Assembly: GCA_035533475.1 (NCBI GenBank)
Contig: DATLTS010000046.1
Coordinates: 2,229-66,228, forward strand
Length of the DNA: 64,000 bases
Reading direction: 5' to 3'
Origin: Mycobacteriales bacterium
Lineage (GTDB): Bacteria > Actinomycetota > Actinomycetes > DATLTS01
The notes under the pieces are model-generated. The model ran no database searches, was not told the DNA's origin, and worked only from the letters and a program-made list of their open reading frames with translations. The translations under genes were made by a program, and so were the position numbers. Below, one piece after another: positions 9,076 to 58,560 of the stretch. Position 1 is the first letter of the stretch. Each line of letters starts with the position of its first letter.

Positions 9076-9276
9076 CTTCGGAGTCCTCCGCAGTGAGGCA
9101 CGTGATGCGCGAGCTGGTGGGCGATGGAGGCTCGCAGGGGGTCATTTGAGGGTGACACGCTCCGCCGCGCCGGTCAAGCCCCAGGTTACGGGTTCATCAC
9201 GACTTGAGTCCCGATGGCTCAATCTTACGCCGGGTCGAGGAGGCCACCGGAGTGCACGGCGCGCCCTTCGGGTGGG

Positions 9277-10131: not shown

Positions 10132-10134
10132 CGG

Positions 10135-10851: not shown

Positions 10852-11117
10852 AGCCGGGCGACCGCGTAGTCCACGGCGTCCCCCACGGTGCGCAGATCCT
10901 CGAGATCGCCGTCGTCGATGTGGAACCCGGAAGCCGCCCGCGGGGCGAGCCGCTCCTCGACGATCTCGGCCATCTCGACGAGCGCCAGCGAGTCCGCGCG
11001 CAGGTCCTCGCGGAACGTGCTGTCCCGCCGAACCGTCGCTGGATCTATCTCGAGGACGGTGGCGATCGCGTCGCGGATCACCCCGAACACATCCGGTGGC
11101 CCGTCCGGCGTACTCAC
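10848..11117 (-). CDS. Acyl carrier protein-like (89 aa)
   Basis: Acidic small protein with a phosphopantetheine-attachment-type DSL motif ([19 protein letters not shown]). It sits between plsX and rnc, as in the Bacillus plsX-fab-acpA-rnc-smc-ftsY order. Confidence 0.7.
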
Positions 11118-45838: not shown

Positions 45839-46013
45839 AGGCAATCCGGCCGGCGGAGGGACCGAGGCGGCGTCCCGGCCGAGCTGTTGGTCCGATTCGT
45901 CCGGCGGGCGCCCGGGCGGCGCATCCGAACGACGGGCCAGCGGGCACATGAGTCTCGGCGAACCGCTTTCCGGGCGGCGGGGCCTGGTCTAGTCTGCGAT
46001 CGAGGCGCCCGAT

Positions 46014-46040
46014 CGGCGGGCGCTCCGAGCGCCCGCCGGA
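46014..46040. promoter_or_regulatory. GC-rich 12-bp palindrome cggcgggcgctc-cg-gagcgcccgccg ~30 nt upstream of the WXG100 start
   Basis: Perfect palindrome read directly. It is followed by a gggga RBS-like stretch and the ATG at 46072. Confidence 0.5.
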
Positions 46041-46071
46041 GCTTGCCCGGTCGGGAGTTGAGGGGACCGCG

Positions 46072-46368
46072 ATGGCCATGATCAAAGTCACGTCCGAGGA
46101 TCTGCAGAGCGCATCCGGCACGCTGATGCAGGGCTCGAACGAGATCAGCGACCGCCTGACGAGCATGAAGAACCTCGTGACGAATCTCGTCGGCGGCGAC
46201 TGGCAGGGCGCCGCGTCGGGCAAGTTCAACGAACTGTTCGACCAGTGGAACGTCTCGGCGGCCGACCTGCAGCGGGCCCTAAGCGGGATCTCCCAACTGC
46301 TGGGCAACGCGGCCAGCGCCTACGCCGAGACGGAGAGCCAAATCGCGCAGTCGATGAACCAGGGCTGA
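46072..46368 (+). CDS. WXG100-family protein (ESAT-6/EsxA-like type VII secretion substrate)
   Basis: 98 aa, helical hairpin with a central W-x-G motif (LVGGDWQGAASGKFNELFDQW). N-terminus reads MAMIKVTSEDLQSASGTLMQGSNEI, typical of Esx proteins. Confidence 0.85.
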   Translation: MAMIKVTSEDLQSASGTLMQGSNEISDRLTSMKNLVTNLVGGDWQGAASGKFNELFDQWNVSAADLQRALSGISQLLGNAASAYAETESQIAQSMNQG

Positions 46369-46396
46369 GCCGGGCACCAGAGGCAAGGGAGACCAG

Positions 46397-46690
46397 GTGC
46401 GCTTCACCGTCGACCCGGAAGGGCTCGCCGCCTTGCACGACCAGCTGGTGGGCATCCAGGCCGACATGCAGAACATCGGCTCGTTCACCGGGAACCACGA
46501 TCCGCTGGACCTCGGCACGAATGATGACGTGTTCAACAGCCTGCAGAACTTCTACAACCAGTGGTCCAACGGGCTGTCCATCGTCACCGACGACATGACG
46601 GCGATCGTGGAGTCCCTCGCGACCGCGGCCGAGGGCTACGCGAAGACTGAGAACTCGATCGTGACAGCGGAAACCCCGAAGGGTTCATAG
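46397..46690 (+). CDS. Small helical partner protein (97 aa), WXG100-like size but lacking a WXG motif
   Basis: Good RBS (caagggagacc) upstream. Tightly linked between the WXG100 gene and the large WXG-domain protein. Predicted helical. Confidence 0.5.
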   Translation: MRFTVDPEGLAALHDQLVGIQADMQNIGSFTGNHDPLDLGTNDDVFNSLQNFYNQWSNGLSIVTDDMTAIVESLATAAEGYAKTENSIVTAETPKGS

Positions 46691-46694
46691 TTCG

Positions 46695-48146
46695 ATGCCC
46701 CGATGGCTGACCATTCTCGGTCAGAATTTCTCGCTGCCCGATCCCGACGTCGTCGAGGAGATCTCGCGCCAGTTCCGGCAGATCTCCGATAACCTGGAGC
46801 AGTCCGGCACGCGCCTCACCAAGCTCGGACCCACCCACGACTGGGGTCATTGGTCCGGCTCCGCCGCGGACGCGTTCGAGCAGAAGCTCGGGCCGCTGCC
46901 TGGTGACCTGAATCAGGCATCCGGCTCCTTCGGCAAGGTCGCTTGGGCGCTGTGGGAGTACGGCAACACGCTGCGCGACGTCATCACCTCCATCCAGACG
47001 CTCGCCGGGCATGTCGACGATGCCCAGTCCGAGCTCTCGTCCATCCAGGCCGCGGCCGCCGCTAATACCGACCCCACCCAGCAACGCGCCTGGCAGGACA
47101 AGATCACCCAGGCACAGCAGGCAGTTGCCTCGCACGCGACGCGGCTCCAGCAGTTGCGGGACGACCTGGATTCGGCAGCGCACCTCGTCGAGGGTCGGAT
47201 CCAGGACGCCATCAACATCGGCATCACCGGCTTCAGCTCGTTCGGCCGGCACTGGATCGGTCGAACTCAGAACGCGGTTGGTGAGGTTGCTGGCTTCGTC
47301 GTGCATCCGATCGAGGATCTACCCGGGGCCATCGCCGCCGAGTGGAATCACCCGTCATGGCAGAACCTGGCTCGGGTGGTGGGTGACGTCGCGGGCATCG
47401 TTGGACTAGTCGCTCTGGTCATTCCCGGGCTGGGCGAGGCGCTCATGGTTGTGTCGATGGGCCTCGATGCCGGCAAGCTCGCCCTGGACACGGGGGCGGT
47501 TGTCAGCGGGGAAACACACAGCTGGGGCAACGTCGCCCTCGACGGAATCTCGTTGGCCCTCGATGGCACGGCACTGCACGCGAGCGGGGCGGCCGAAGGT
47601 GAGACTGTGGCCAACGATGCGCTCGGCGCCGGCCAGTCGGATCTGAACCAGGCCGTCCGGGCCAACGTGAAGGCACAGAGCAGCCTGTCTCGGGCGATCG
47701 CGAGCGGACGTTCCGACGGACTGATCGCATCTCTGCGCGACGGCGCCGACGGGTCACTGGTGCATCTCGAGTCGATGCGCAACAAGGTGTCGATGCTCGA
47801 CGACGCCCGGACGGCGGCACAGACGGGTGCCGGCGCCTGGCGGACCGGGTTCCGCAGCTCGCTGAAATTCGACTTCGGCGGGGTCGGCGAAACGTATCAG
47901 GCGTGGCGGCACCTCCAGTGGAACACGCTCGCCCGCAGGTATCTCGGTGAATTCACCGGCGTGGACCTCTCCGGGGCTGTGCACAGCGCAGGTGTCGTTC
48001 GGATCGAAAACCTGAACTTCGCCGTGCATCAGCTCCGAGCTGCGAGCGGCGGCATGGTCGGGGGCGACGATAACTTCTCTGCTGTCCTTGGAGATCCGCT
48101 CGCGGGCCTCCGCGCTCTCGGAGTCAAGGTGGGGGCCGCATCATGA
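46695..48146 (+). CDS. Large WXG-like N-terminal domain protein (483 aa): candidate T7SS effector/polymorphic toxin with central hydrophobic hairpin
   Basis: N-terminal ~100 aa mimic a WXG100 fold with a W-x-G motif (THDWGHWSGSAADAFEQKL). A hydrophobic segment follows (VAGIVGLVALVIPGLGEALMVVSMGL). The C-terminal ~200-aa domain has no recognisable family. It begins 5 nt after the previous gene. Confidence 0.65.
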   Translation: MPRWLTILGQNFSLPDPDVVEEISRQFRQISDNLEQSGTRLTKLGPTHDWGHWSGSAADAFEQKLGPLPGDLNQASGSFGKVAWALWEYGNTLRDVITSIQTLAGHVDDAQSELSSIQAAAAANTDPTQQRAWQDKITQAQQAVASHATRLQQLRDDLDSAAHLVEGRIQDAINIGITGFSSFGRHWIGRTQNAVGEVAGFVVHPIEDLPGAIAAEWNHPSWQNLARVVGDVAGIVGLVALVIPGLGEALMVVSMGLDAGKLALDTGAVVSGETHSWGNVALDGISLALDGTALHASGAAEGETVANDALGAGQSDLNQAVRANVKAQSSLSRAIASGRSDGLIASLRDGADGSLVHLESMRNKVSMLDDARTAAQTGAGAWRTGFRSSLKFDFGGVGETYQAWRHLQWNTLARRYLGEFTGVDLSGAVHSAGVVRIENLNFAVHQLRAASGGMVGGDDNFSAVLGDPLAGLRALGVKVGAAS

Positions 48147-48787
48147 CCGCAACGACGCACATCGCACCGAGCGGGATCCGGCTGGCGACACCCGGGGACT
48201 GGTTCGAGGTGCCGACCTCCGAAGACCCCTCCGAGATCGCACGTCAGGTAGACGCACTGGTCGTCTCCCGGCCCGGGCTTGAAGGGCAGCGCGAGGTGCT
48301 CACCGGGCTGCTCGGCGTCCTCGGGGCCACGGCCGCAGCGAGCCGTGCCCTATGCGTGCGGGCAGTGCTCGTCGACGCTCCCGGTGGCCAGCTGCCGGCC
48401 TTTCTCATGGCCTCTATCGGGGAGGCGCCCGCGGGCGGTGTGGCGGCTATCCCCGGGGAAGACGCTTCTTGGCTGAGCCGGACCTTCGATTTGCCGATGG
48501 GCCCGACGGTCCGTCTCGAGGGGGTCGGCGAAACCCCCCGTGGTGCCGACGGCGGCGCAGTGGCCGTTTCACTCGTGCAGTACCACGCTGCCGTTCCGAG
48601 CACCGACCGGCTGCTCAGCCTGGTGTTTTTCACACCCGCGCTAGGGCTGATGGACACCGTGCTACGGGAGATCTTCCACGGCATCGCCTGCAGCGTCGAG
48701 TTCGAGGCCGACAACCCGGACCCCGAAGGTACGGCCGCGATGGCGCCGACCCATGGGCGTTCCGCCCCGGACGGCCTGACCTCCTGA
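48143..48787 (+). CDS. Hypothetical cytoplasmic protein (214 aa): candidate cognate immunity protein/chaperone
   Basis: Start overlaps the stop of the candidate effector (ATGA), and its stop overlaps the eccC start. No transmembrane segment and no known family. Confidence 0.5.
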   Translation: MTATTHIAPSGIRLATPGDWFEVPTSEDPSEIARQVDALVVSRPGLEGQREVLTGLLGVLGATAAASRALCVRAVLVDAPGGQLPAFLMASIGEAPAGGVAAIPGEDASWLSRTFDLPMGPTVRLEGVGETPRGADGGAVAVSLVQYHAAVPSTDRLLSLVFFTPALGLMDTVLREIFHGIACSVEFEADNPDPEGTAAMAPTHGRSAPDGLTS

Positions 48788-51700
48788 TGCGGCTCACGAT
48801 CACCCTGCGCTCCGCGGAGGCATCTCGTCATCTGGCAGTAGACACCCAGCCCGGAACCACCCTCGCCGACTTGCTCGAGGCCGCCGGTGCCAGCGGCGCT
48901 GTTGCGGTGAACGGCAGGGCGGCGCAGCCCAAGACCTTGCTTAGCCATATTCCGGTTCGTGACGGAACTGTGCTCGATGTTGGTCGCCGGCGCCCTGCCA
49001 CCCGCCGTGCGGACCCGGGCGCCCTGGCCCTACTCGTAGCAGGGGGGCCGGCGGCCGGGCACAGCCTGCCACTGGCCGAAGGAACGCATCCTCTCGGACG
49101 CACCGAACCCCTGCCGCTGGACGATCCGGACGTGTCCCGTCGCCATGCCCAGCTGGTGGTCACCCCCGACCATTCCCTCGCCTTGACCGACCTCGGCTCG
49201 CTGAATGGCACCCGCGTGCAGGAGCAACCGGTGGCCGGCACGCACCTGCTACGCCCCGGCGACCTGATCCGGATGGGGCAGTCCGCGCTCATAGTGGCGA
49301 TGGCACCGACGGCGGACGCGGCCATGACCGAAGGCGACGGGGGCCGGCTCCGGTACAGCCGTCCACCGAGGATCCGGGTGGGAGCGGCCGGGACCAAAGT
49401 GGACCTGCCGGCACCGCCCGGGGAAACCGACCGCGCGCCGATTCCGGTTCTGGCCATCCTGGCCCCAGTGGCTATCGGGGTGATGATGGCCCTGCTGCTG
49501 CACCAGATCACCTACCTAGCCTTCACCGCCCTGTCGCCGGTGATGGCCATCGGCAACGTGGTGTCCGATCGGCGCCGCGGCCGGGTCGGTCACCGCCAGA
49601 GAATGGTCGAGTTCGAGGCGCGTCGCTCCGCCGCCCTGGCTACCGCGCGCACCGCCCAGGAAACCGAGCTTGGTCGTTTGCGCTACGACCATCCCGATCC
49701 GGCCACCGCGCTGCTCATTGCGACCGGCCCGAGCAGCCGATTGTGGGAGCGGCAACGCCACGACGATGACTTCCTCACGCTGCGCATCGGCACCGCCGAG
49801 ATCCCCGCGTCGGTGGAGGTCCGGCAAACGGCGCCGCCCACCGAAACGGTGTCCCGGGTCACCCGGTTGCCAGAAGCGCCCGTGGTCGTGCCGGTGACGA
49901 GTTGCGGCGCGGTGGGTCTGACCGGCCCTGCGACGCTGGTCCGGGCGCTCGCTCGGGCGATGCTGCTGACGGCCGCAGTCCTGCATAGCCCACGTGAACT
50001 CACCATCACCTTGTTGACCCTCGACGAGGCTCGTGCCGACTGGGAGTGGCTGCGCTGGCTCCCGCACACACGCTTCCCTGACTCCGCTGCCGCCGGTTCC
50101 CGAATCGGCAACGACGAGGTCACAGTGACAAACAGGGTTAGTGAACTGGCCGCACTGATCGATGCGCGCCGTGCGGCTGTCCCGCCTGGTCAGAAGCCGA
50201 CGCTGCCGGCAACCGCCGATCTGGTGGTCGTAGACAACTCCTATCGGGTGCGACTCGAAACCGCGCTGGGCCCACTGCTGCACGCCGGGCCGGGTGTCGG
50301 TGTCTACTTCCTCTGCCTGGATGACACGGCCGCCCGGCTGCCCGAGGAATGCGCATCCGTCGTGGAGATCCGCGATGCGCCGGATGGTCCGCTGGCCCAA
50401 CTCCGCCGGAGCGGGCACCAACCGGTAGAGCAAATCGTGCCGGACCGGGTTACTCCCGACGTGTGCGAGGAGCTGGCTCGTTCCATCGCCCCCGTGATCG
50501 ATGCCGGTGGCGTCGAGACCCAGGCGGCGTTGCCCGGATCGGTGCGCTTCCTCGAGCTGGCCGGTCTCGAGCCGCCGACCTCGGAGGCGATCCTCGCGGG
50601 CTGGTCCGGCGGCGGTCGGACCACCCGAGCGCTGCTCGGCGTTGGCGCGGACGGTCCGGCAATTCTCGACCTGGCTCAGGGACCGCACGTCCTCATCGGC
50701 GGCACCACCGGGTCGGGCAAGAGCGAACTGTTGCAAACCCTGGTGGCCTCGCTCGCGGTCGCAAACCGCCCGGACGCGATGAACTTCGTGCTCGTCGACT
50801 ACAAGGGGGGGGCGGCGTTCCGCGGATGCGCCCAGCTGCCGCACACCGTCGGCATGCTCACCGACCTCGACGCCTTCCTCGTCGAGCGGGCGCTCACCTC
50901 GCTGCGTGCCGAACTTCAGCGTCGCAAGGCCCTCCTCGACGCCGCAGACAAGACCAACGTCTCCCGATACTGGGAAGCCCTGCCTTCGATGCCCGGCGCA
51001 GACCCCATGCCACGGCTCGTCGTAGTTGTCGACGAGTTCGCGGTGATGGCCGAGCAGTTGCCGGAACTGCTCAAGTCCCTCGTCGAGATCGCCGCGCAGG
51101 GTCGCTCGCTCGGCGTGCATCTCGTGCTGGCCACGCAGCGCCCGGCGGGCGTGGTCAACGCCGAGATGCGAGCGAACATCAACTTGCGCATCGCGTTGCG
51201 GGTGGCGTCCATTGACGACAGCATGGACGTGATCGGCGGTCCGGAGGCGGCCCGGATCCCGGCCGAAGGCACCGCCGGACGTTGCCTCGTGCGGACCGGC
51301 ACCAGCCGACCGGTCCCCCTGCAGGCCGCGCGAGTCGGGGGCCTGCGGCCCGGAGCCCACGCGGTTAGCGCCAGTGTCGGCGTCGTGCCTGTGGACTGGC
51401 TCGACGTCGGCCGGCCACCGGCCGGCGCGCCGCCCGACAGCTACGACCCGGCGGATCCCACTGATCTGTCCACCTTGGTGACCGCGGTCGCCGAAGCCGG
51501 GAGTCGGCTTGGCACAGCGCGGCCACGCTCACCCTGGCAGCCGCCGCTGCCGACCGCCCTCCCGCTGTCGTCGCTGGCGCCGTCCGACCAGGATCTCGCC
51601 ATCGTCTACGGCCTTGAGGACCTGCCGTCCCGGCAACAGCAGCGTCCCGCCGTACACGACCTACGCCGTGCCGGGCACCTGCTGGTAGCTGGTGCCCCCA

Positions 51701-53109
51701 AATCCGGCAGATCGACCCTGCTGCGCACATTGGCCGGATCGATCGCCACAAGCGTCACCGCCGAAGTGGCCCAGCTCTATGTCGTGGACTGCGGCGGGGG
51801 GGGCCTGTCGTCGCTGGCGGCGTTGCCGCACTGCGGTGCCGTCGTCACGCCGGCCGAGCCTGAGCGGGTTGACCGGCTGCTTACCAGGCTCACAGCTGAG
51901 CTGTCGCGCCGGATGCAGCTGCTTGCCACTGCGGGCTGCAGCGATATCGGTGAGTACGTTGCCGGGGGTGGTGAGCCCCTTCCGTACCTCGCGGTGATCG
52001 TCGATCGTCACGACGCATTCAGCACCGCGCTCGAGCACATCGACGGTGGCCGCCTGGTTACCGAGCTCCAGCGACTGGTCCGGGACGGGCTGGCCGCGGG
52101 TGTCCGGGTCATCGTGACCGGTGACCGGAGCCTCCTGACGGGGAAGCTCGGTGGCCTCGTCGAGGACAAGCTGGTGCTTCGGCTCGCCGACCGGATGGAC
52201 TACACCGTGGCTGGCCTATCGGCCAAGACATTGCCCGACATCGTTCCAACCGGACGCGCGTTCCGGCTGCCGGCCGGCGACCAGATTCAAATCGCCACCC
52301 TCTCCGCCGACCCGGAGGGTGCGGCGCAGAATCGCGCGATCCGGGACATCGCCGCGACTGCTGCGGCACCACGGCACCGACCGATCCGGGTCGATTCGCT
52401 GCCTCCGGCAATCAGCTATGCCGAGGCACGTGATCTGCCCGTCTCCGGCAGCGGCGCTCTTGTCGGCGTCGGCGGCGACGAGTTGGGACAGGTCCGCGCC
52501 GACGGCCCCGGGTTCCTCGTCCTCGGGACGTCAGGTAGCGGCCGCAGCAGCGCCCTGGCCGTTATCGCCCGTTCCGTCGTCGACGACGGTCGCCCGGTGG
52601 TTCTGGTCACCCCACGCCGGTCCCGATTGTCGGTACTGATCCCCGCCGGACCCGGCGTACTCGCAGTTCACGACGGTGGCGAGGAGGAACTTGCGGCCGC
52701 GGTAGCCACTTCAACCGACACGGTCCTCATCATCGACGACGTGGAAATGCTCACCGAGACCGCCCTTGGAGAACAGATCACCGCCATCCTCCGCCAGGCA
52801 CGCGATACCCGGCACGTCGTGTACGCCGCCGCGTCGGGAGACGAGGCGGGAAACATCTACCGCGGCCCGCTCGCCGAACTGCGCAAGTGCAAGCAAGGGC
52901 TGGTACTTGCACCAACCAACCCCACCCAGGGGGATGTGATCGGCACCCGGCTGCCTCGGTCGGTGCTGTCCGCCGGCATCCCGCAACGAGGCGCCCTGGT
53001 GCTCAACGGGACGGTCACCGCGGTGCATGTACCAACCATCGAACCGCCGGCACCCGCGCGTGCTCCCGCCAAGCGCCGACGGGCGCCTGCCCGGACCGAG
53101 AGCGGTTGA
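48787..53109 (+). CDS. eccC: EccC/EssC-type type VII secretion FtsK/SpoIIIE ATPase (three P-loop domains) with N-terminal ubiquitin-like and FHA domains
   Basis: 1440 aa. A beta-grasp-like N-terminus (MRLTITLRSAEASRHLAVDTQPGTTLADLLEAAG) is followed by an FHA domain (HPLGRTEPLPLDDPDVSRRHAQLVV...SLNGTRV). Two transmembrane helices follow. Three Walker A motifs are present (GGTTGSGKSELLQTL, AGAPKSGRSTLLRTL, LGTSGSGRSSALAV) with Walker B-like DEF/DD boxes. The listed ORF start at 48352 overlaps the previous gene; ATG 48787 was chosen. Confidence 0.9.
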   Translation: MRLTITLRSAEASRHLAVDTQPGTTLADLLEAAGASGAVAVNGRAAQPKTLLSHIPVRDGTVLDVGRRRPATRRADPGALALLVAGGPAAGHSLPLAEGTHPLGRTEPLPLDDPDVSRRHAQLVVTPDHSLALTDLGSLNGTRVQEQPVAGTHLLRPGDLIRMGQSALIVAMAPTADAAMTEGDGGRLRYSRPPRIRVGAAGTKVDLPAPPGETDRAPIPVLAILAPVAIGVMMALLLHQITYLAFTALSPVMAIGNVVSDRRRGRVGHRQRMVEFEARRSAALATARTAQETELGRLRYDHPDPATALLIATGPSSRLWERQRHDDDFLTLRIGTAEIPASVEVRQTAPPTETVSRVTRLPEAPVVVPVTSCGAVGLTGPATLVRALARAMLLTAAVLHSPRELTITLLTLDEARADWEWLRWLPHTRFPDSAAAGSRIGNDEVTVTNRVSELAALIDARRAAVPPGQKPTLPATADLVVVDNSYRVRLETALGPLLHAGPGVGVYFLCLDDTAARLPEECASVVEIRDAPDGPLAQLRRSGHQPVEQIVPDRVTPDVCEELARSIAPVIDAGGVETQAALPGSVRFLELAGLEPPTSEAILAGWSGGGRTTRALLGVGADGPAILDLAQGPHVLIGGTTGSGKSELLQTLVASLAVANRPDAMNFVLVDYKGGAAFRGCAQLPHTVGMLTDLDAFLVERALTSLRAELQRRKALLDAADKTNVSRYWEALPSMPGADPMPRLVVVVDEFAVMAEQLPELLKSLVEIAAQGRSLGVHLVLATQRPAGVVNAEMRANINLRIALRVASIDDSMDVIGGPEAARIPAEGTAGRCLVRTGTSRPVPLQAARVGGLRPGAHAVSASVGVVPVDWLDVGRPPAGAPPDSYDPADPTDLSTLVTAVAEAGSRLGTARPRSPWQPPLPTALPLSSLAPSDQDLAIVYGLEDLPSRQQQRPAVHDLRRAGHLLVAGAPKSGRSTLLRTLAGSIATSVTAEVAQLYVVDCGGGGLSSLAALPHCGAVVTPAEPERVDRLLTRLTAELSRRMQLLATAGCSDIGEYVAGGGEPLPYLAVIVDRHDAFSTALEHIDGGRLVTELQRLVRDGLAAGVRVIVTGDRSLLTGKLGGLVEDKLVLRLADRMDYTVAGLSAKTLPDIVPTGRAFRLPAGDQIQIATLSADPEGAAQNRAIRDIAATAAAPRHRPIRVDSLPPAISYAEARDLPVSGSGALVGVGGDELGQVRADGPGFLVLGTSGSGRSSALAVIARSVVDDGRPVVLVTPRRSRLSVLIPAGPGVLAVHDGGEEELAAAVATSTDTVLIIDDVEMLTETALGEQITAILRQARDTRHVVYAAASGDEAGNIYRGPLAELRKCKQGLVLAPTNPTQGDVIGTRLPRSVLSAGIPQRGALVLNGTVTAVHVPTIEPPAPARAPAKRRRAPARTESG

Positions 53110-53601
53110 TCAGTGCCGCCGCAGAGCCCCCCGCAGGCGCCCCCATCGGCCATGCATTACCGGTTGGCCTGCTGGCGCTGCGCCAGCGGGCCGATCCGCC
53201 CGCATCCGGGTTCGCGTCGGATCCGCCACGGGTTCGGACTGCTGTATTTCCGGCCGGGCGGCTACGCTCGCCGGCCGGAAATGCACCCATACGTCGCCAA
53301 AGCGCAGCGAGCACGCGTCGATCAGGGCGGTTCCGTCCGGCCCAACGGCGGTCTCCCCCAGCCACGTGCCGTTCGCGGACCCGAGGTCACGCAACACGAC
53401 AGCGGAAGCGGTCACTTCGAGTTCGGCGTGACGACGGGAGACGGACCGGTCTGGGTCCAGCTCGGTGAGATCGACATCCGGTGGCACCGGCATCCGCTCG
53501 TCGTAGCGTCCGACAACTGTCATCCCGGGCGGCAGGAACCATACCGATGGTCCGGCCGCGAGGGACGATTCGGTCGCCCGTTGGGTCACGGCAGCGAGCA
53601 T
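53110..53601 (-). CDS. Stand-alone FHA-domain protein
   Basis: GMTVVGRYDERMPVPPDVDLTELDPDRSVSRRHAELEVTASAVVLRDLGSANGTWL matches the FHA consensus (G-R, S-R-x-H, N-G-T). It is convergent with the eccC end. The start could be further upstream (up to 53844) through an Arg-rich stretch. Confidence 0.7.
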   Translation of the reverse strand: MLAAVTQRATESSLAAGPSVWFLPPGMTVVGRYDERMPVPPDVDLTELDPDRSVSRRHAELEVTASAVVLRDLGSANGTWLGETAVGPDGTALIDACSLRFGDVWVHFRPASVAARPEIQQSEPVADPTRTRMRADRPAGAAPAGQPVMHGRWGRLRGALRRH

Positions 53602-53630
53602 ACGGTGATCGAACCTCAGGGGGCGCAATC

Positions 53631-54437
53631 GTGAGCGACGACCCGACCGCAACCCGCGGCCGGTCCAAGCCACCTGCATCAGAGCCGCCGGCGGAAGGGC
53701 AGCCCAGCAACGACCCGACCGCAACCCGCGGCCGGTCCAAGCCGGCGCCGGCACCGCCTGTATCCGAGCCGCCGGCGGAGCGGCAGGCCGCCGCAGATCC
53801 GACCGCAACCCGCGGTCGGCTCGCTCCACAGTCCTCGCCGCCACCCGACGGCGCGCCCCAGCCTGACCCGCAAGGGACCGTGCTCCGGCGTCGCGCGCCG
53901 GGGTCCTTCCCGGCCGCGGAAGTCAAGGTCGCTCCAGCACTGGCCTCCGCCCCGATGGCACCGGTCGTACTGCCCGATCGTCGGATCGAGCCACCCGTCT
54001 ACCGGCCTCCCGGCAGCCGGCGCAGGCTGGTCGCTGCCGTCGGTGGTTTGCTTCTCGCGGGCGCCGGAGTGGCCCTCGGATACGCATTGCATCCGCAGCC
54101 AACGCCCCCGGCCCGGGCCACGGTCGCACCGCCGACCCTGTCGGGGGTGGTCGCTTCCGGTCCGGCCGGAGCTCTGCACTGCCCATCAGCGCTCCTGCAC
54201 GTGGTCGGAACTATCACGGTCACCGCCGCGACCACGGTTCGCTACCAGTGGCGCCTTCCGGATGGCACCTTCACGGCCGTGCAAACCCTCACCGCGGCAG
54301 GCCCCGGACCGGTCACCGCCACACTGAGCTACACCCTGTCCGGTCACGGACAGCAAACCGGCGTGGCCACTCTGCACGTGCTGACACCCGCGGACGTTTA
54401 CTCCAACCCAGTGGCCGTCGCCTACCGGTGCCCATGA
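53631..54437 (+). CDS. Proline-rich single-pass membrane protein with 3x DPTATRGR(S/L)KP tandem repeats and a C-terminal extracytoplasmic beta-rich domain
   Basis: GTG start with an aggggg RBS. Three ~60-bp direct repeats (53640-53830) encode DPTATRGRSKP...SEPPAE. A transmembrane helix follows (LVAAVGGLLLAGAGVALGYAL), then a Cys-containing C-terminal domain. The opposite-strand reading of the same repeats is also open, so strand assignment is not certain. Confidence 0.55.
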   Translation: MSDDPTATRGRSKPPASEPPAEGQPSNDPTATRGRSKPAPAPPVSEPPAERQAAADPTATRGRLAPQSSPPPDGAPQPDPQGTVLRRRAPGSFPAAEVKVAPALASAPMAPVVLPDRRIEPPVYRPPGSRRRLVAAVGGLLLAGAGVALGYALHPQPTPPARATVAPPTLSGVVASGPAGALHCPSALLHVVGTITVTAATTVRYQWRLPDGTFTAVQTLTAAGPGPVTATLSYTLSGHGQQTGVATLHVLTPADVYSNPVAVAYRCP

Positions 54438-54449
54438 AGCCAGTTGCCG

Positions 54450-57063
54450 CTAGGAACCTGTGAAATGGAAGGTGACCGGCATGTAGTTCGCCGCGTGAGC
54501 GTTAGCGTTTGGACTGCTCTGGCATGACGCCTCGATGGTGAGGTCACCGGCGGGTATCGAGGGCGTTGGTTGTCCCTGCTGGGATTGGAATGAGCCGACC
54601 TGCGCCGTGCCCTGCCAGGAACCGTCCGGCTGTAGCCGGATCGGCCCACCCTGCCTGAGGTCCGCTTGGGGGACGAGGGTTGCGATGTCGTAAATGACGA
54701 TTTGGCTTCCTGCTGGGCAGGCTGTTTGGGAGGTCATGGTGATGACCGTTTTGGCCCCACCACTGCTCGGCGAAATGGTGAACGTCATCGCCGGGCCGCC
54801 GTAGCAGAGCCACGACACCGCGTCGTTGGGATCGTTGAGCCTGGCCGTCACGTTCGAGTGGTAGTAGAACTGCCACTGACAGGCAGCGTTCATGTCGACC
54901 GGCTGGGTGCCTTTGGCTCCTGTACAGGTCCAGTTCCCGGTCCCGTCGCCCGGACCGAGCAGAGGCTTCGTCGGGGCGGCCATGCTGAATCCGAGCGACG
55001 CGCAGTAGGAGTCGAGTTGCGCGCCGCCGAGCAAGCCGGCCTGCGACGGCACGATAGACGCGGGCGGCAACTCGGCGCCGGCCGGCAGCCTGCGGAGGTT
55101 TTGCGTGCTGGTCAGGACGTGCCCGTGGTAGGTGAACGAATCGAATATGGTCAACCGCGTTGCCGTGCACGTTACCTGAGTCGGGACGATACCCGTCTGC
55201 AGCGGCACGCCCTGCGACAGTGTGTGATCGTACCCGGCGTAGAGCAGGCTCACCGAGTGGCTGTAGTCAGCGTTGATCGTCAGCAGGGTGTGCTCACCAC
55301 GGGTCGCCCAGCGCCAGGTCGACGTCCCATATCCGGTGTCGATGAAGGGGGCGCCGTTGAGAACCCCCGTGGCCGGCGGTCCGCCGGGCGGGGACACCCC
55401 GATCGCCGTGCCGTCGGCGTTGTAACGCGTGTCCCCGTCGAGCGGACTGGGCGGCAGGTTTACCAGGACGGGCTGCTGGCTCCAGACGTCGTCGTACGGA
55501 CCGCCCAGCACCGCCCAGGTGCCGACTATGCATGACGCCAGCGGTGGGGGGCTGGGTGAGGCTGCAGCGGCGCCGACGAGAGTGACGGCCGTCAGTACCG
55601 CAACCACTCCAGCGACGACCGGCGGCCGGCTGGCGATGCGCACCGGTATCGCGCTCACAACGACACTAACCAGAGCGGATGTGCGCCGCGGTGGCGCCGC
55701 CCGGCCCGGTTCCGCGGGAGCTTTCGGGCCGTCCGCCGCGTGACTCGGGGGCTCGCTCCTCGGGGCGCTCGGTCCGGGGGGAGCCGCCGGGGAAGTGCCG
55801 CCCGCCACGGTGCCGCCCGCCACGGTGCCGCTCGCCACGGTGGCCCCCACCGTGCTGGAACCGGCGACCGGAGCGAGCGCAGCCCCCGCTGCCGAGACGG
55901 TCCCGGCGCCGACAATCGCGGCCGTTGCGCCGCCGGCGGCCAGAGCGGCGACAGCGCCAACCATCGCGGCCGGCTGCCAATTCGGCCCGTAGGCCTGACG
56001 AGCTGCCGCGGTGAGGTTCTCCCGGAACTGCGCGGCCGAACCGGGCCGGGCGGCAGGATCTTTGGCCAGGGCGGACATCGTGAGCAGCGCCAAGGCCTCG
56101 GGGATCTGTGGCCGCACCGACCGGGGGTCCGGCACCGGATCTCCGAGGTGGGCGTCCATCACGGCGGCTGGGGTCGCGCCCACGTACGGGCGCTGCCCGG
56201 TCAGCACCTCGAAGAGCACCGCCCCGCAGGAGTAGATATCCGTTCTGGCGTCCAGGGGTTCGCCGCGCACCTGTTCCGGACTCATGTAGGCGGGCGAGCC
56301 CACCGATGCCTCGCTGCCCTGGGCGAAGGCTCCGACGTCGCGGGCGAGGCCGAAGTCGACGAGCCGGGACACCCCGGCGCGATCCACGAGGATGTTGTCG
56401 GGCTTGATGTCGCGGTGCACCATCCCCCGGGCATGCACGTGCTCGAGGCCGGCGAGCGCCCCGTCGAAGACTGCGGCCGCCTGTTCGCCACCAAGTGGGC
56501 CAGAACGGCGAAGCATCGCGCGCAGGCTGGCCCCGTCCACGTAGTCGACCACGATCGCCGCGATCACGTCGTCGTCGAGGATTTCGCGCACCCGGACGCA
56601 GTTCGGATGATCGAGGGCACGCATCAGCGTGGCCTCGTCGCGGAAGCGGGCGCGAAATTCCTCGTCGTCCATCCACTCGGGCGCGAGCACTTTGATCGCA
56701 ACCGCATGGCCGTCGTCGTCATGCGCCCGATACACGGTGCCGGACGCGCCGGACCCCACGATTCCGTCAACCGAGTAGGTGCCGATCCGCACCCGGGCTG
56801 GCGAGCCCAGCCACCTGGCCACGAGCAGTGGCGCCGCCCCGAGTAGGGCACCGGCGACGGCTGCGACGATCCACCACACCGGGTTCATCGAACCGACCCG
56901 CGACCCCCACCACGCAGCGTCCCCAGCGCCAGCAGCGAGGCCCAGCCCCGCTAACCGTGCCAGGCTCGAGGAACGGTGGCGGAAAGCCAGCATCAAGGAG
57001 ATGCCGGTGGCGGCGACGGTGACGGCCAGACCGAAGTAACCGGCCCAGGTGGGAACATGCATG
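54450..57063 (-). CDS. Membrane Ser/Thr protein kinase with N-terminal transmembrane helices, second TM and large Cys-rich extracytoplasmic domain
   Basis: Hanks kinase motifs are present (GSGASGTVYRA, AIKVL, HRDIKPDNILV, DFGLA, SPAYMSPE). N-terminal hydrophobic helices precede the kinase domain. An Ala/Gly-rich linker, a transmembrane helix (VVAGVVAVLTAVTLVGAAAA) and a ~380-aa C-terminal region with eight Cys follow. Start set at ATG 57063 (MHVPTWAGYFGL). Confidence 0.9.
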
Positions 57064-57148: not shown

Positions 57149-58546
57149 CTAGCTGAAGGCGGCGGCGAGTTCTTCGAGGCATCCGGGCAGCGCGTCGGCG
57201 ATCGCCCAGGTGTCCGCCACCAGATCGGGGCAGGCCATGATGCCGACGTCGAGCCGGTCGAGGTTGGACAGCACCGTGATGTTCATCCCGGTGCCCGGCA
57301 GCAGCGGGCCGAGCGGATAGATGGCGTCGATCCGAGCCCCAGCCAGGTACAGCGCTACCGGCGGTCCCATGACGTTGGACACGATGAGGTTCTGAAGGGC
57401 GGGCTGCAGCGCCGAGAGACCGAGGCTGCGCATCAGCCAGGTCACGACGGAAACCGCCGCGGGTGGCGTCACGTCGGCGAGCGACGCGAGCGTCGACGTC
57501 CCTGCCGCCCCCGTAATCTCCTTGGCCATCGCCGAGTTTCGATGCACGAGCTGTAGGAGCTCCGCCGGCTCGCTCTCCCGCATCGGTAGAGCTACGAGGA
57601 GGGCGGCGAGCCGGTTGGTGCCGCTCGTCTCGCCCTCACCCGCATTGAGCGGGCAGCTGACGACGAGCGGTCGGCCCGGCACCGCATCCCGCGCCCTGAG
57701 GTAGCGCCGGAGTGCCAGCGCGATCGTGGCGAGCACCACATCGTTGAGCTTCACGCCGGCCGCGTCCTTGACCTGCTTCGCCTGCTCGAGCGGCAGCGCG
57801 GAGAAGGCCGCGATCCGGGCCCGGGTGGGCGGCCCGCTGATCGGGGTCCGCGGCGAGGCGATCGGCATCGTGGCCGGGCCGGAACCGGCAATCATGCGAC
57901 CCACGGCGGGCAGGGCCGAGATCAGGCCCCGTCCGCTCGACAGCACGGCCCTCCCGGCGGCCAGCGGCCAGCGGAGTTGGTTCGCCAGGGTCCGGCCGGT
58001 CAGCGCGAATGCGCCGGGCCGTTCGTCCTGGGGGCCGGGCAGCGGCGGCGCGGGAAGCGGCGGAGGGTTCGGCTCGAGATCTAGCAGGGCGGCAATGAAC
58101 TCGGCCCCCGCCGCCCCGTAGAGGGTGCAGTGGTGCACCTTGGCGACCAGCCCCACCCGGCCCGCTGCCAGTCCGTGAACGACGTGCAACTCCCAAAGCG
58201 GCCGGTCCCGGTCCAACCGTCGGCTCGCGATCCTTCCGACCAGATCGCCGAGGGCGCGCGCATCGCCGGGGGGATCGACCTCGTCGTCGAACAGGTGGAG
58301 CGAGAGGTCGACGTCGGCCACCTCCAGCCAGTACGGCTTGTCCAGGGAGAGCGGCACGGTGACGAGTTGCCGTCCGAATGGCGGCATCAGGTGGATTCGG
58401 TCGGCCACGACCTGGCGCAACCGGGCGCGGGAGTACCCGTCTCCGGGTGAAGGATCGAGCAGCAGGACACCGAGAACGTGCATCGGGAGCTCGGCGGTCT
58501 CCAGGGCGAGGAAGGCGGCGTCCATCCCGGTGAGCTGCTCGGCCAT
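57149..58546 (-). CDS. Wax ester synthase/diacylglycerol acyltransferase (WS/DGAT)
   Basis: MAEQLTGMDAAFLALET N-terminus and the active-site HHCTLYGAAG (HHxxxDG-type) motif. Confidence 0.85.
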   Translation of the reverse strand: MAEQLTGMDAAFLALETAELPMHVLGVLLLDPSPGDGYSRARLRQVVADRIHLMPPFGRQLVTVPLSLDKPYWLEVADVDLSLHLFDDEVDPPGDARALGDLVGRIASRRLDRDRPLWELHVVHGLAAGRVGLVAKVHHCTLYGAAGAEFIAALLDLEPNPPPLPAPPLPGPQDERPGAFALTGRTLANQLRWPLAAGRAVLSSGRGLISALPAVGRMIAGSGPATMPIASPRTPISGPPTRARIAAFSALPLEQAKQVKDAAGVKLNDVVLATIALALRRYLRARDAVPGRPLVVSCPLNAGEGETSGTNRLAALLVALPMRESEPAELLQLVHRNSAMAKEITGAAGTSTLASLADVTPPAAVSVVTWLMRSLGLSALQPALQNLIVSNVMGPPVALYLAGARIDAIYPLGPLLPGTGMNITVLSNLDRLDVGIMACPDLVADTWAIADALPGCLEELAAAFS

Positions 58547-58560
58547 CGGGCTCCCCTCGT

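What the first reader, a model, noticed from the sequence alone, without database searches (positions are those of the whole stretch)
46072..57063. Compact, non-canonical type VII secretion-like island with STPK/FHA control elements, embedded in a lipid/steroid catabolic cluster
Eight co-localised genes make up the island. Five are translationally coupled on the + strand:
- a WXG100 protein;
- a small helical partner;
- a 483-aa WXG-N-terminal protein;
- an overlapping small cytoplasmic protein;
- a triple-P-loop EccC/EssC ATPase.
Divergent from these are an FHA protein, a repeat-bearing membrane protein and a receptor-like Ser/Thr kinase.

No homologues of the usual membrane core are present (EccB/EccD/EccE/MycP of actinobacterial ESX, or EssA/EssB/EsaA of firmicute T7SSb), yet the ATPase and substrates are intact. 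The FHA domains and adjacent kinase suggest a phospho-threonine switch, analogous to Fha1/PpkA/PppA control of type VI secretion. That has not, to my knowledge, been described for an actinobacterial T7SS-like system.
Basis: partly seen in the sequence, partly recalled or inferred. Interest (0 to 1): 0.85.

Follow-up and report, generated by a model that had tools for sequence, protein, structure and literature searches.

The report
Kinase-linked minimal type VII secretion module
This is a compact type VII protein-export gene cluster from an uncultured actinobacterium that lacks the usual membrane parts and sits beside a signalling kinase; kinase-linked variants were already described in 2024, so it is a new variant, not a new kind.

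Summary
The gene orientations were misread: the FHA gene converges on eccC, and the repeat membrane gene is on the + strand. No EccB/D/E/MycP or EssA/EssB/EsaA gene was detected in the stretches that were annotated, from window position ~14.5 kb (with an unread gap at 19-21 kb) to 8.8 kb past the window end.

The ATPase belongs to a widespread, unnamed actinobacterial EccC/EssC clade. Its architecture is a ubiquitin-like domain, a phosphothreonine-competent FHA domain, two TM helices and three P-loop domains. Only the first P-loop domain has a Walker-A lysine.

Five sister contigs carry a fixed six-gene operon: WXG100, partner, a WXG-type protein with a TM segment, a ~200-aa protein, eccC and a Ser/Thr kinase. 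The kinase gene overlaps the end of eccC. This supports a functional kinase-secretion link. The window's own kinase is only ~40% identical to those kinases, so this end of the module was remodelled.

The 214-aa protein models as a Mog1/PsbP/Eag-type fold and is probably a chaperone for the TM-bearing substrate.

T7SSd (Garrett et al. 2024) and the Esr-Esx pathway (2026 preprint) already describe kinase/FHA-linked actinobacterial T7SS. This locus is not T7SSd. Verdict: a new variant of a known kind, of moderate interest.

The parts
46072..46368 (+). EsxA-like WXG100 protein (98 aa). It has a WQG motif and a C-terminal YAETE (YxxxE) motif.
   Evidence: Pfam WXG100 E 4.7e-22; TIGR03930 7e-20. A 97-aa orthologue heads the operon in L005, L087, L089, L090 and L091.
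46397..46690 (+). EsxB-like helical partner (97 aa). It has no WXG motif; its C-terminus carries YAKTE (YxxxE).
   Evidence: Weak WXG100 hit, E 0.0067. jackhmmer links it to WXG100-type ORFs in 25 loci. It occupies the syntenic second gene in the sister operons.
46695..48146 (+). P3 (483 aa), the putative exported substrate. It has a WXG/LXG-like T7SS-targeting N-domain (~1-200), a strongly hydrophobic TM segment (~224-275) and a poorly conserved C-terminal region.
   Evidence: Pfam T7SS_signal 6e-7 and WXG100 1e-6. W50/W53/G55 are invariant in the orthologues. The TM segment was found by hydropathy. Homologues with the same N-domain plus TM include 1654-2877-aa versions; the L009 one carries an RHS-like motif by eye.
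48143..48787 (+). P4 (214 aa), a cytoplasmic protein with a Mog1/PsbP/DUF1795(Eag)-type fold. It is the candidate chaperone for the TM segment of P3.
48787..53109 (+). EccC/EssC-like T7SS ATPase (1440 aa): ubiquitin-like domain, FHA domain, two TM helices, DUF, and three P-loop domains.
   Evidence: T. curvata EccC 279 bits; B. subtilis YukB 211 bits. 349 homologues across Actinomycetota. The family alignment is A1.
48787..48984 (+). N-terminal ubiquitin-like (YukD-type beta-grasp) domain of the ATPase, residues 1-66.
   Evidence: A profile of 27 family N-termini hits ubiquitin-fold PDB chains at E 4e-7 and the EccD1 Ubl at 0.04. Seven of 27 members hit Pfam YukD, best 1.8e-7. The AF2 model has pLDDT ~92 with beta-beta-alpha-beta-beta-beta topology.
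49024..49302 (+). FHA domain of the ATPase, residues ~80-172, with the GR...SRRH...NG phosphothreonine-binding residues intact.
   Evidence: Pfam FHA 4e-12. Foldseek best hits are OdhI, GarA and FhaA at 34-36% identity, E 1e-8. G104/R105/H120 are invariant and S117/N140 nearly invariant in the canonical-FHA subfamily.
49426..49560 (+). Two predicted transmembrane helices of the ATPase (residues ~214-258).
   Evidence: Hydropathy segment 216-248, score 2.56. The sequence was read.
50584..53046 (+). Three P-loop NTPase domains. D1: Walker A GTTGSGKS at 639-646, Walker B DE at 749-750. D2: GAPKSGRS at 969-976. D3: GTSGSGRS at 1247-1254.
   Evidence: Motif and conservation analysis on 42 family members. 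The D1 Lys is invariant. The D2 Arg is invariant and the D3 Arg is present in 41 of 42.
53110..53601 (-). Small stand-alone FHA protein (~163 aa; start uncertain), convergent with eccC.
   Evidence: Pfam FHA 3.2e-11 with GR/SRRH/NG intact. Codon-position GC fits the minus strand. It is absent from the five sister operons. Separate FHA genes recur near eccC in other loci, e.g. L031, L032, L034 and L085.
53631..54437 (+). P7 (268 aa; GTG start uncertain). It has a disordered N-terminal region with three DPTATRGR repeats (DNA 53640-53842), RRR followed by one TM helix (residues 132-153), and a ~110-aa Cys-containing C-terminal domain. It is the candidate kinase substrate and FHA docking site.
   Evidence: Translation. 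TRF period 84, 2.1 copies, at 53669-53842. TM by hydropathy. The gene was called on the source contig. There are no family hits and no homologue in 80 genome loci.
54450..57062 (-). Membrane Ser/Thr protein kinase (870 aa). It has an N-terminal TM hairpin, a catalytic domain (96-342) with VAIK/HRD/DFG intact, a TM helix, and a ~330-aa Cys-rich extracytoplasmic domain.
   Evidence: Pkinase 3.9e-50; PknB-type 3.7e-79. Motifs; TM segments. Kinase-domain identity to the sister-operon kinases is only 39-43%.

Best explanation
The region is a compact type VII secretion module from a widespread actinobacterial lineage. That lineage is not named in the papers I retrieved. It is neither ESX/T7SSa, nor T7SSb, nor T7SSd.

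Shown:
- It encodes an EsxA/EsxB-like WXG100 pair.
- It encodes a larger substrate (P3) with a WXG-type targeting domain followed by a TM segment.
- It encodes a cytoplasmic Mog1/PsbP/Eag-fold protein (P4).
- It encodes an EccC/EssC-type ATPase whose N-terminus carries a ubiquitin-like domain and a phosphothreonine-competent FHA domain.
- Close relatives have a membrane Ser/Thr kinase as the sixth, translationally coupled gene of the operon.

Inferred mechanism:
- The ATPase hexamer, through its two TM helices per subunit, forms the export channel.
- The fused ubiquitin-like domain plays the role that YukD plays in T7SSb and the EccD N-terminal domain plays in ESX, bracing the N-terminal region against the DUF domain.
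- The membrane kinase takes the position of the EssB/YukC pseudokinase on the FHA domain. Because it is catalytically intact and the FHA domain can read pThr, assembly or activity is gated by threonine phosphorylation in response to a signal sensed by the variable extracytoplasmic domain of the kinase.
- In this window the kinase end was remodelled. A different, inverted kinase is present, together with a small FHA protein and a membrane protein. The cytoplasmic DPTATRGR repeats of that membrane protein are the likeliest phospho-acceptor and FHA docking sites, in the way TssL-pThr recruits Fha in T6SS.
- P4 shields the TM segment of P3 in the cytoplasm until export.
- P3 then inserts into a membrane, either of a target cell or of the producer's own envelope.
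For: - Domain identities.
- It is EccC/EssC and not FtsK/TraB: 522, 418 and 315 bits against 76 and 27 bits. PDB best hits are T. curvata EccC and YukB.
- No canonical core: none is listed among called genes from window ~21 kb to 8.8 kb past its end. A direct scan of nine long ORFs in the first 21 kb found only housekeeping genes. No conserved membrane-protein family appears across 40 related loci, and none in four sampled sister-clade loci.
- Six-gene operon with a kinase overlapping eccC: five of five sister contigs, each with different flanks. Their kinase domains are 71-78% identical, at least as conserved as EccC at 61-74%.
- FHA is pThr-competent.
- A kinase lies within 10 kb in 7 of 15 loci with a canonical FHA, against 4 of 27 with a degenerate FHA.
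- Ubiquitin-like domain.
- P4 fold. P4 co-occurs only with TM-bearing P3.
- P3 homologues with the same N-domain plus TM reach 1654-2877 aa; the L009 homologue carries an RHS-like motif by eye.
- Structural precedent for a YukB-YukC-YukD core unit: PMC12637312.
- The same phospho-switch idea for T7SSc/d/e: PMC11217815.
- Experimental kinase-to-FHA control of Esx in Schaalia: PMC13622651.
Against: - Nothing here shows secretion, phosphorylation or any protein contact.
- The window's kinase is only 39-43% identical to the conserved operon kinases. That is the level of any two bacterial Ser/Thr kinases. It is also on the opposite strand. Its link to secretion therefore rests on adjacency.
- The small FHA protein and P7 have no counterpart in the sister operons or in 80 genome loci.
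- The P4 model is only moderately confident (pLDDT 62), and the same fold is used by immunity proteins such as Tsi3 and TplEi.
- About three quarters of related loci have no kinase within 10 kb, so a kinase is not essential to the wider family.
- D2 and D3 lack the Walker-A lysine. The consequence for function is unknown.
- A canonical ESX core elsewhere in the genome could not be excluded.
Confidence: 0.6

Rival explanations
1. The ATPase is an accessory EccC paralogue with no apparatus of its own. It works with a canonical ESX (T7SSa) membrane core (EccB/D/E/MycP) encoded elsewhere in the genome. The island would then be only a substrate and ATPase cassette.
For: The wider family includes sequences from Streptomyces; from general knowledge that genus also carries a canonical ESX locus, which was not checked here. 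The best solved-structure match is the T. curvata EccC. The rest of this genome could not be searched.
Against: The N-terminus (ubiquitin-like plus FHA) differs from that of ESX EccC. From PMC12637312, ESX EccC receives its ubiquitin-like contact from EccD. The module moves as a self-contained operon between unrelated contexts. No core gene lies next to any of about 45 family loci.
Confidence: 0.15
2. The kinase, the small FHA protein and the repeat membrane protein form an independent signalling module, for example for cell-envelope or lipid metabolism. On this view it merely lies next to the secretion operon in this organism.
For: The window kinase is not the orthologue of the operon-coupled kinases and is on the other strand. 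The FHA protein and P7 are unique to this contig. The neighbouring genes are lipid-related.
Against: A kinase occupies the position next to eccC in every close relative examined. The ATPase carries its own pThr-competent FHA domain. From general knowledge, Ser/Thr kinases and FHA proteins number only tens and a handful per actinobacterial genome, so both falling within 4 kb of eccC by chance is unlikely. Stand-alone FHA genes recur beside eccC in other loci.
Confidence: 0.15
3. The locus is simply a member of the published T7SSd subtype (TsdA, TsdC, TsdD, TsdH, TsdI).
For: It is actinobacterial. It has a WXG100 gene, an FHA-ATPase with the pThr motif, and a membrane kinase. P7 fits the description of TsdH: one TM helix and an unstructured cytoplasmic region.
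Against: There is no large Ig-like TsdI-type protein within the stretches examined. The Coriobacteriia loci do have one (1250-1551 aa with a C-terminal TM). The ATPase carries a ubiquitin-like domain, whereas T7SSd is reported to have none. In an NJ tree the Coriobacteriia ATPases group with the Bacillota EssC proteins, away from this clade. Identity to them is 25-31%, no higher than to Listeria EssC at 29%.
Confidence: 0.05
4. P4 is the immunity protein for a toxic C-terminal domain of P3, not a chaperone.
Against: P4 orthologues accompany P3 proteins whose C-termini differ completely in length and content, from 453 to 1654 aa. What those P3 proteins share is the N-domain and the TM segment. 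The two P3 homologues without a TM segment lack P4. P4 is soluble and cytoplasmic, which is an odd place to protect against a membrane-acting toxin.
Confidence: 0.25
5. The ATPase is a conjugative TraB/FtsK-type DNA translocase and the island is part of a mobile element.
For: It belongs to the FtsK/SpoIIIE superfamily. The module has island-like, variable flanks, and the GC content dips slightly to 66% at 46-48 kb.
Against: It has three tandem P-loop domains. EssC and EccC models score 315-522 bits, against 76 for FtsK and 27 for TraB. WXG100 genes are coupled upstream. No integrase, relaxase or replication genes appear in the flanks.
Confidence: 0.02

Closest known systems
T7SSd of Actinomycetota (Olsenella, Bifidobacterium). 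Garrett, Higginson and Palmer 2024, PMC11217815.
   Same: It is an actinobacterial system with no EccB/D/E/MycP. [quoted passage not shown] Phospho-regulation was proposed there by analogy with T6SS.
   Different: This locus has no TsdI-like giant Ig-repeat envelope protein. Its ATPase has a fused ubiquitin-like domain, whereas T7SSd is reported to lack any. The ATPase falls in a separate, purely actinobacterial clade. It also has an extra conserved pair, P3 and P4, and Arg replaces Lys in the D2 and D3 Walker A motifs.
[quoted passage not shown]
   Same: The same three functional modules are present: an FHA-bearing ATPase, a kinase-fold bitopic membrane protein, and a ubiquitin-like module. 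This gives a structural template in which kinase-fold dimers sit on the FHA domain and the ubiquitin-like module braces FHA against DUF.
   Different: Here the kinase is catalytically intact rather than a pseudokinase. There is one FHA domain with pThr-binding residues, rather than two degenerate ones. The ubiquitin-like module is fused rather than free. No EsaA/YueB or EssA/YueC is present. The EssC HMM score falls below its cut-off (522 < 778).
ESX / T7SSa of mycobacteria and other Actinomycetota.
   Same: The phylum is the same, and so is the EsxA/EsxB-type WXG100 pair with YxxxE motifs. The ATPase body is closest in sequence to a solved actinobacterial EccC (T. curvata 4nh0, 279 bits).
   Different: No EccB, EccD, EccE, MycP, EspG or PE/PPE gene was detected in the annotated parts of the window or the 8.8 kb beyond its end. 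The ATPase N-terminus carries ubiquitin-like and FHA domains, which ESX EccC lacks.
Esr threat-sensing pathway linked to Esx in Actinomycetales (2026 preprint, PMC13622651).
   Same: In that system a Ser/Thr kinase phosphorylates a threonine in a disordered region of an FHA-domain output protein, and this controls Esx secretion of a subset of substrates. The authors note FHA-EccC fusions. Related loci L006 and L029 do carry MoxR/DUF58/transglutaminase genes next to this type of eccC.
   Different: The window has no MoxR, vWA, transglutaminase, beta-propeller sensor or phosphatase gene. Only the kinase and FHA elements are present.
T6SS threonine-phosphorylation pathway (PpkA/PppA/Fha1; TssL-pThr in Agrobacterium).
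   Same: The logic is the same as the one inferred here: a membrane kinase phosphorylates a cytoplasmic Thr on a membrane component, an FHA protein docks, and secretion is activated.
   Different: It is an unrelated secretion machine. No phosphatase gene is present in this island. The resemblance is an analogy only.
Eag (DUF1795) chaperones of T6SS prePAAR effectors (EagT6/PA0094, SciW; PMC7773334).
   Different: P4 has no sequence match to Pfam DUF1795. The secretion system is different. The TM segment lies after, not at, the N-terminal targeting domain. The fold is also shared by Mog1, PsbP, LpqN, DcrB and some immunity proteins.

Membership tests
Type VII secretion system (generic) | Membrane-anchored FtsK/SpoIIIE-family ATPase with three tandem P-loop domains (EccC/EssC type) | tested here: met
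   EssC 522 bits, EccCa 418, EccCb 315, against FtsK 76 and TraB 27. Three Walker A/B sets were located. TM segment at 216-248.
Type VII secretion system (generic) | Adjacent WXG100-family small helical substrate(s) | tested here: met
   WXG100 E 4.7e-22, plus a weaker partner. WQG and YxxxE motifs were read.
T7SSa / ESX | EccB, EccD, (EccE) and the MycP mycosin encoded with eccC | tested here: not met
   None of these Pfam families is listed among called genes from window ~21 kb to 8.8 kb beyond its end. Long ORFs at ~2.9-8.7 and ~14.5-20.3 kb are housekeeping genes. About 9-14.5 kb gave no usable annotation. The rest of the genome could not be tested.
T7SSb | EssA, EssB/YukC pseudokinase, EsaA/YueB and free EsaB/YukD; EssC with two degenerate FHA domains | tested here: not met
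   No YukC, YueB or EssA family hits. There is one FHA domain with intact pThr residues, plus a fused ubiquitin-like domain. The EssC equivalog model scores below its cut-off.
T7SSd (Garrett et al. 2024) | TsdC: ATPase with N-terminal FHA domain(s) and a conserved pThr-binding motif, clustering near T7SSb/T7SSe ATPases | tested here: inconclusive
   The FHA domain with its motif is present. In an NJ tree, however, the Coriobacteriia ATPases group with Bacillota and not with this clade. No authentic O. uli TsdC sequence was available.
T7SSd (Garrett et al. 2024) | TsdD: membrane Ser/Thr kinase with a cytoplasmic N-terminal kinase domain | tested here: met
   Pkinase 3.9e-50; VAIK/HRD/DFG intact; a TM helix after the kinase domain. 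Unlike TsdD as described, it also has an extra N-terminal TM hairpin.
T7SSd (Garrett et al. 2024) | TsdI: very large (~1650 aa) Sec-exported Ig-repeat protein with a C-terminal TM helix | tested here: not met
   No such gene lies in the window or its flanks. By contrast, 1250-1551-aa proteins with a C-terminal TM are present in the Coriobacteriia loci L069, L073 and L078.
T7SSd (Garrett et al. 2024) | No ubiquitin-like component | tested here: not met
   The ATPase carries a YukD-type ubiquitin-like domain at residues 1-66.
T7SSd (Garrett et al. 2024) | TsdH: a single TM helix with a short unstructured cytoplasmic region | tested here: inconclusive
   P7 fits the description. However, it has a ~110-aa outer domain and is absent from the sister operons. 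Homology to TsdH could not be tested.
Esr pathway (PMC13622651) | MoxR AAA+ ATPase, vWA protein, transglutaminase, beta-propeller sensor and a kinase/phosphatase pair, with an FHA output protein | tested here: not met
   Only the kinase and FHA are present in the window. MoxR/DUF58/transglutaminase genes do occur in related loci L006 and L029.
Eag / DUF1795 effector chaperones (for P4) | DUF1795 sequence family; binds effector TM helices | tested here: inconclusive
Phosphothreonine-binding FHA domains | Conserved Gly-Arg, Ser-x-x-His and Asn-Gly residues of the pThr pocket | tested here: met
   Both FHA domains carry GR...SRRH...NGT. The residues are conserved in the subfamily. The nearest structures are OdhI, GarA and FhaA.

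The most novel reading that the evidence does not exclude
The module is a self-sufficient, minimal type VII secretion machine. Its only dedicated membrane parts are the Ubl-FHA-EccC hexamer and a catalytically active receptor kinase that takes the structural place of EssB. Secretion is switched on by threonine phosphorylation read by the ATPase's own FHA domain. Its TM-bearing substrate is handled by an Eag-like chaperone, which would be the first such chaperone for a T7SS and a convergence with T6SS effector handling. The family, present in Streptomyces, Actinomadura, Frankia and many soil metagenome-assembled genomes, would constitute a further T7SS subtype not covered by the a-j scheme.
Probability: 0.3. 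Interest if true: 0.7.

Novelty: new variant of a known kind. Interest (0 to 1): 0.5.

Why it matters
T7SS diversity outside mycobacteria and Bacillota is still being mapped. This family is widespread in soil Actinomycetes: 349 ATPase homologues were retrieved, including sequences from Streptomyces, Actinomadura, Nonomuraea, Micromonospora and Frankia. It offers a very small gene set of six genes.

With that set one could test several questions directly:
- what the minimal T7SS channel is;
- whether an active kinase is the ancestor or functional equivalent of the EssB pseudokinase;
- whether FHA-pThr recognition gates secretion;
- how TM-containing T7SS effectors are kept soluble.

The fused ubiquitin-like domain links the free YukD of Bacillota to the EccD-fused domain of ESX. 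However, the general ideas are already in the literature: non-canonical actinobacterial T7SS, kinase/FHA control and the T6SS analogy. The contribution is a new subtype and several new parts, not a new principle.

Tried and rejected
- TraB/FtsK DNA translocase: rejected by model scores.
- Canonical core just outside the window: the source contig was walked 8.8 kb past the window end and back to ~21 kb, and nothing was found. Two further look-ups for the first 20 kb failed because my guessed gene starts were not on record. That part was covered instead by a direct Pfam scan of long ORFs.
- Unbiased search for a conserved extra membrane component: all-against-all clustering of six-frame ORFs in 40 related loci found none. 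The frequent clusters were antisense artefacts of eccC, the WXG100/P3/P4 families, and Tad-pilus genes in a subset.
- P7 homologues: jackhmmer found none in 80 loci. P7 and the outer domain of the kinase share no similarity.
- P4 by sequence: there is no Pfam, NCBIfam or PDB profile match. A single-sequence word search found only itself. A profile built from locus ORFs was needed.
- Foldseek on the Ubl-FHA model returned only FHA hits. Evidence for the ubiquitin-like domain therefore rests on profile searches and model topology.
- Sister-clade loci were checked for ESX core genes, to see whether the clade derives from T7SSa. None was found, so the position of T7SSa relative to this clade is unresolved.
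- An orthologous relationship between the window kinase and the operon kinases was rejected on identity grounds.

Full report
**1. What is in the sequence**

The window is ~70% G+C. It matches a 198-kb metagenomic contig exactly (ENA ERZ27256814, k141_1239470). The ATPase is named in NCBI as coming from a 'Mycobacteriales bacterium' MAG.

Five + strand genes run from 46072 to 53109. Their spacings are 28 and 4 nt, followed by overlaps of 4 and 1 nt.
- The first is a WXG100 protein (Pfam E 4.7e-22). It has WQG and YAETE motifs.
- The second is a weak WXG100 relative (E 0.0067) with a YAKTE motif.
- The third is the 483-aa P3. Its N-terminus matches Pfam T7SS_signal (6e-7) and WXG100 (1e-6).
- The fourth is the 214-aa P4, which has no family hit.
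- The fifth is a 1440-aa FtsK/SpoIIIE ATPase.

- A ~163-aa FHA protein (FHA E 3e-11) is encoded on the minus strand at 53110-~53601. It converges on eccC and abuts its stop codon.
- A 268-aa membrane protein, P7, is on the + strand at 53631-54437.
- An 870-aa Ser/Thr kinase (Pkinase E 4e-50) is on the minus strand at 54450-57062 and converges on P7.
- Codon-position GC supports these strands.
- One automated gene call on the contig put a + strand ORF across the FHA gene. That ORF has no family hit and an implausible composition.

**2. The ATPase**

It scores 522 bits on the EssC model, 418 on EccCa and 315 on EccCb, all below their curated cut-offs. It scores 76 on FtsK and 27 on TraB. The best solved relatives are T. 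curvata EccC (279 bits) and B. subtilis YukB (211 bits). It is therefore a T7SS ATPase that fits none of the curated subtypes.

I aligned 42 family members and examined the motifs.
- D1 has an invariant GxxGxGKS Walker A and a DE Walker B.
- D2 (GxxxSGR[ST]) and D3 (GxxxSGRS) carry Arg where the Walker-A Lys should be; the Arg is invariant at D2 and present in 41 of 42 at D3.
- 'Triple P-loop' is thus correct, but probably only D1 is a conventional hydrolase. That last point is my inference from the general behaviour of K-to-R Walker-A substitutions.

Residues 80-172 form an FHA domain with GR, SRRH and NG intact. The AF2 model has mean pLDDT 88.5. It is closest to OdhI, GarA and FhaA, the classic actinobacterial phosphothreonine readers, at 34-36% identity.

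- A profile of 27 family N-termini hits ubiquitin-fold chains at E 4e-7 and the EccD1 ubiquitin-like domain at 0.04.
- Seven of 27 members hit Pfam YukD, best 1.8e-7.
- The model shows the beta-beta-alpha-beta-beta-beta topology.

**3. Context and absence of a canonical core**

Pfam annotations along the contig were read from window position ~21 kb to 8.8 kb beyond the window end. They show acyl-CoA dehydrogenases, CoA-transferases, thiolase, SDRs, TetR regulators, two WS/DGAT genes, and the leuCD-hupB-gpsA-ddl block. No EccB, EccD, EccE, MycP, YukC, YueB or EssA appears.

A direct Pfam scan of nine long ORFs in the first 21 kb identified GGDEF-EAL, smc, recG, a fakA-like gene and thiL, at ~2.9-8.7 and ~14.5-20.3 kb. 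ORFs at ~9-12 kb gave no hit and ~12-14.5 kb was not scanned. 'Lipid catabolic cluster' is a fair label for the flanks. 'Steroid' was not shown.

**4. Relatives**

The database holds 349 ATPase homologues at E < 1e-20. They come from Actinomadura, Streptomyces, Catenulispora, Kineosporia, Nonomuraea, Micromonospora, Streptosporangium, Frankiales and many MAGs.

Five sister contigs (ATPase 52-56% identical to the window's) could be read with full context. All five carry the same six-gene operon:
- WXG100 (97 aa);
- a ~105-aa partner;
- a ~450-aa P3;
- a ~200-aa P4;
- eccC;
- a Ser/Thr kinase whose start overlaps the end of eccC by about 20-50 nt in four of the five (a 13-nt gap in L005).

The flanks are unrelated in each case. 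This is the strongest evidence that a kinase belongs to the machine. The kinase domains are 71-78% identical among these five, at least as conserved as the ATPase at 61-74%.

The window's own kinase is only 39-43% identical to them. It has an extra N-terminal TM hairpin and sits on the other strand. The small FHA protein and P7 have no counterpart in the sister operons. I conclude that this lineage remodelled the 3' end of the module. It kept 'a kinase next to eccC' but probably not the original one.

I also surveyed 80 loci from named genomes. Iterative searches and all-against-all clustering found no further membrane protein conserved with the ATPase. P3 and P4 recur together. Kinases lie within 10 kb in 7 of 15 loci whose ATPase has a canonical FHA, against 4 of 27 with a degenerate FHA. 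Some loci have MoxR/DUF58/transglutaminase genes (L006, L029), and some have Tad-pilus genes.

**5. P3 and P4**

P3 orthologues share the WXG-type N-domain (W50, W53 and G55 invariant) and a strongly hydrophobic 25-50-residue segment. Their C-termini are poorly conserved. The same N-domain plus TM arrangement heads proteins of 1654-2877 aa in other genomes; the L009 homologue carries an RHS-like motif by eye. That is the signature of a T7SS-exported polymorphic effector (Zhang et al. 2012, PMC3482391).

- Tsi3, DcrB and PsbP.

EagT6 and SciW are T6SS chaperones that shield effector TM helices (PMC7773334). All ten loci with P4 have a TM-bearing P3. The two P3 homologues without a TM segment have no P4. 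I therefore favour a TM-chaperone role over immunity, at moderate confidence.

**6. P7**

The N-terminal ~130 residues are Pro/Ala-rich and contain three DPTATRGR repeats. These are encoded by an 84-bp DNA repeat. An RRR motif and one TM helix follow, which places the repeats in the cytoplasm by the positive-inside rule. The C-terminus is a ~110-residue domain containing Cys.

P7 fits the published description of TsdH, but it is unique to this contig. Its role as the kinase substrate and FHA docking site is an inference by analogy with TssL-pThr-Fha in T6SS.

**7. Comparison with the literature**

- Garrett, Higginson and Palmer 2024 (PMC11217815) defined T7SSc to T7SSj. T7SSd is actinobacterial (Olsenella, Bifidobacterium). 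It lacks ESX core genes and has an FHA-ATPase with a conserved pThr motif and an active membrane kinase. The authors compare that kinase topologically with EssB, and they explicitly propose phospho-regulation by analogy with T6SS.
- A 2026 preprint (PMC13622651) shows in Schaalia that a kinase phosphorylates an FHA protein, which controls export of a subset of Esx substrates. It also notes FHA-EccC fusions.
- The cryo-EM structure of YukB-YukC-YukD (PMC12637312) shows the pseudokinase dimer sitting on the FHA domain and the ubiquitin-like YukD clamped between FHA and DUF.

The locus is nevertheless not T7SSd.
- It has no TsdI-type giant protein, whereas Coriobacteriia loci in my set do.
- It has a ubiquitin-like domain, whereas T7SSd is reported to have none.
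- Its ATPase lies in a purely actinobacterial clade. The Coriobacteriia ATPases group with Bacillota EssC (NJ tree), and identities to them are 25-31%.
- Iyer et al. 2006 (PMC1779556) state that the actinobacterial YukD domain is always fused to the 12-TM protein (EccD). I found no description of a ubiquitin-like-FHA-EccC fusion in the papers I could search.

**8. Mechanism, with status marked**

Shown: gene content, domain integrity, operon conservation and the absence of nearby canonical core genes.

Inferred:
- The ATPase hexamer forms the channel.
- The fused ubiquitin-like domain substitutes for YukD or the EccD N-terminal domain.
- The kinase occupies the EssB position and, being active, makes FHA engagement dependent on phosphothreonine.
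- The kinase's variable outer domain senses the trigger.
- In this window, P7 and the small FHA protein add a docking or competition layer.
- P4 chaperones the TM segment of P3.
- P3 is exported with the EsxA/B pair.

**9. Verdict**

This is a new variant of a known kind with several features worth follow-up: the ubiquitin-like fusion, the Arg-substituted D2 and D3 Walker A motifs, the Eag-like P4, and a compact six-gene operon widespread in soil Actinomycetes.

Noticed in passing
window 53113-53634 (+) versus 53110-53601 (-): The gene call stored for the ENA contig places a 160-aa + strand ORF over what Pfam shows to be a minus-strand FHA gene. The call on the Logan copy of the same DNA is on the minus strand. 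This is a likely annotation error in the public record.
   Followed up: partly
window 51691-51714 and 52525-52548 (ATPase residues 969-976 and 1247-1254): The Walker A motifs of ATPase domains D2 and D3 have Arg in place of the catalytic Lys (42 of 42 relatives at D2, 41 of 42 at D3). D1 is canonical. This suggests that D2 and D3 bind nucleotide but do not hydrolyse it.
   Followed up: partly
L006:16017-20198 (Actinomadura livida) and L029:6148-9833: MoxR (AAA_3), DUF58 and transglutaminase genes sit directly beside the same type of eccC and kinase. This matches the Esr threat-sensing pathway of the 2026 preprint, which would extend that linkage to Streptosporangiales and to uncultured Actinomycetota.
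   Followed up: partly
L012, L013, L016, L024, L026, L030, L033 (upstream of eccC): Genes resembling Tad/Flp-pilus components (CpaF-like ATPase, TadB/C-like, TadE-like; judged by eye from representative sequences, no profile run) cluster next to eccC in about ten loci. In the seven listed, the ATPase FHA domain is degenerate in all but L030. Garrett et al. noted a Tad linkage for T7SSh in Bacillota.
   Followed up: no
L009:16054-21015, L014:15229-23859, L020:16041-23930: Very large proteins (1654-2877 aa) start with the same WXG-type domain plus TM segment as P3; the L009 one carries an RHS-like motif (by eye). They are candidate T7SS-delivered polymorphic toxins in Kineosporia, Kribbella and Streptomyces.
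   Followed up: partly
L089:9836-13613: One sister operon carries two tandem Ser/Thr kinase genes after eccC. Their kinase domains are 71% identical, which indicates a recent duplication of the coupled kinase.
   Followed up: no
window 46001-48000: GC content dips to 66% over the esxA-esxB-P3 genes, against ~70% in the flanks. The six-gene module sits in unrelated contexts in every relative. Both points are consistent with horizontal mobility of the module, although no integrase or repeats were looked for.
   Followed up: no
window 1-33000: The upstream half of the window holds GGDEF-EAL, smc, recG, a fakA-like gene, thiL, ddl, gpsA, cofC, hupB and leuDC. From memory, this resembles the gene order around Rv2922c-Rv2988c of M. 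tuberculosis, which would fit the Mycobacteriales label. ORFs at 9214-12136 (+) gave no Pfam hit.
   Followed up: partly
window 57149-58579 and beyond the window end (L003:7514-8980): Two wax-ester synthase/DGAT genes, a luciferase-like oxidoreductase, a beta-lactamase-fold protein and several acyl-CoA dehydrogenases flank the island. This points to storage-lipid metabolism rather than demonstrably to steroid metabolism.
   Followed up: no
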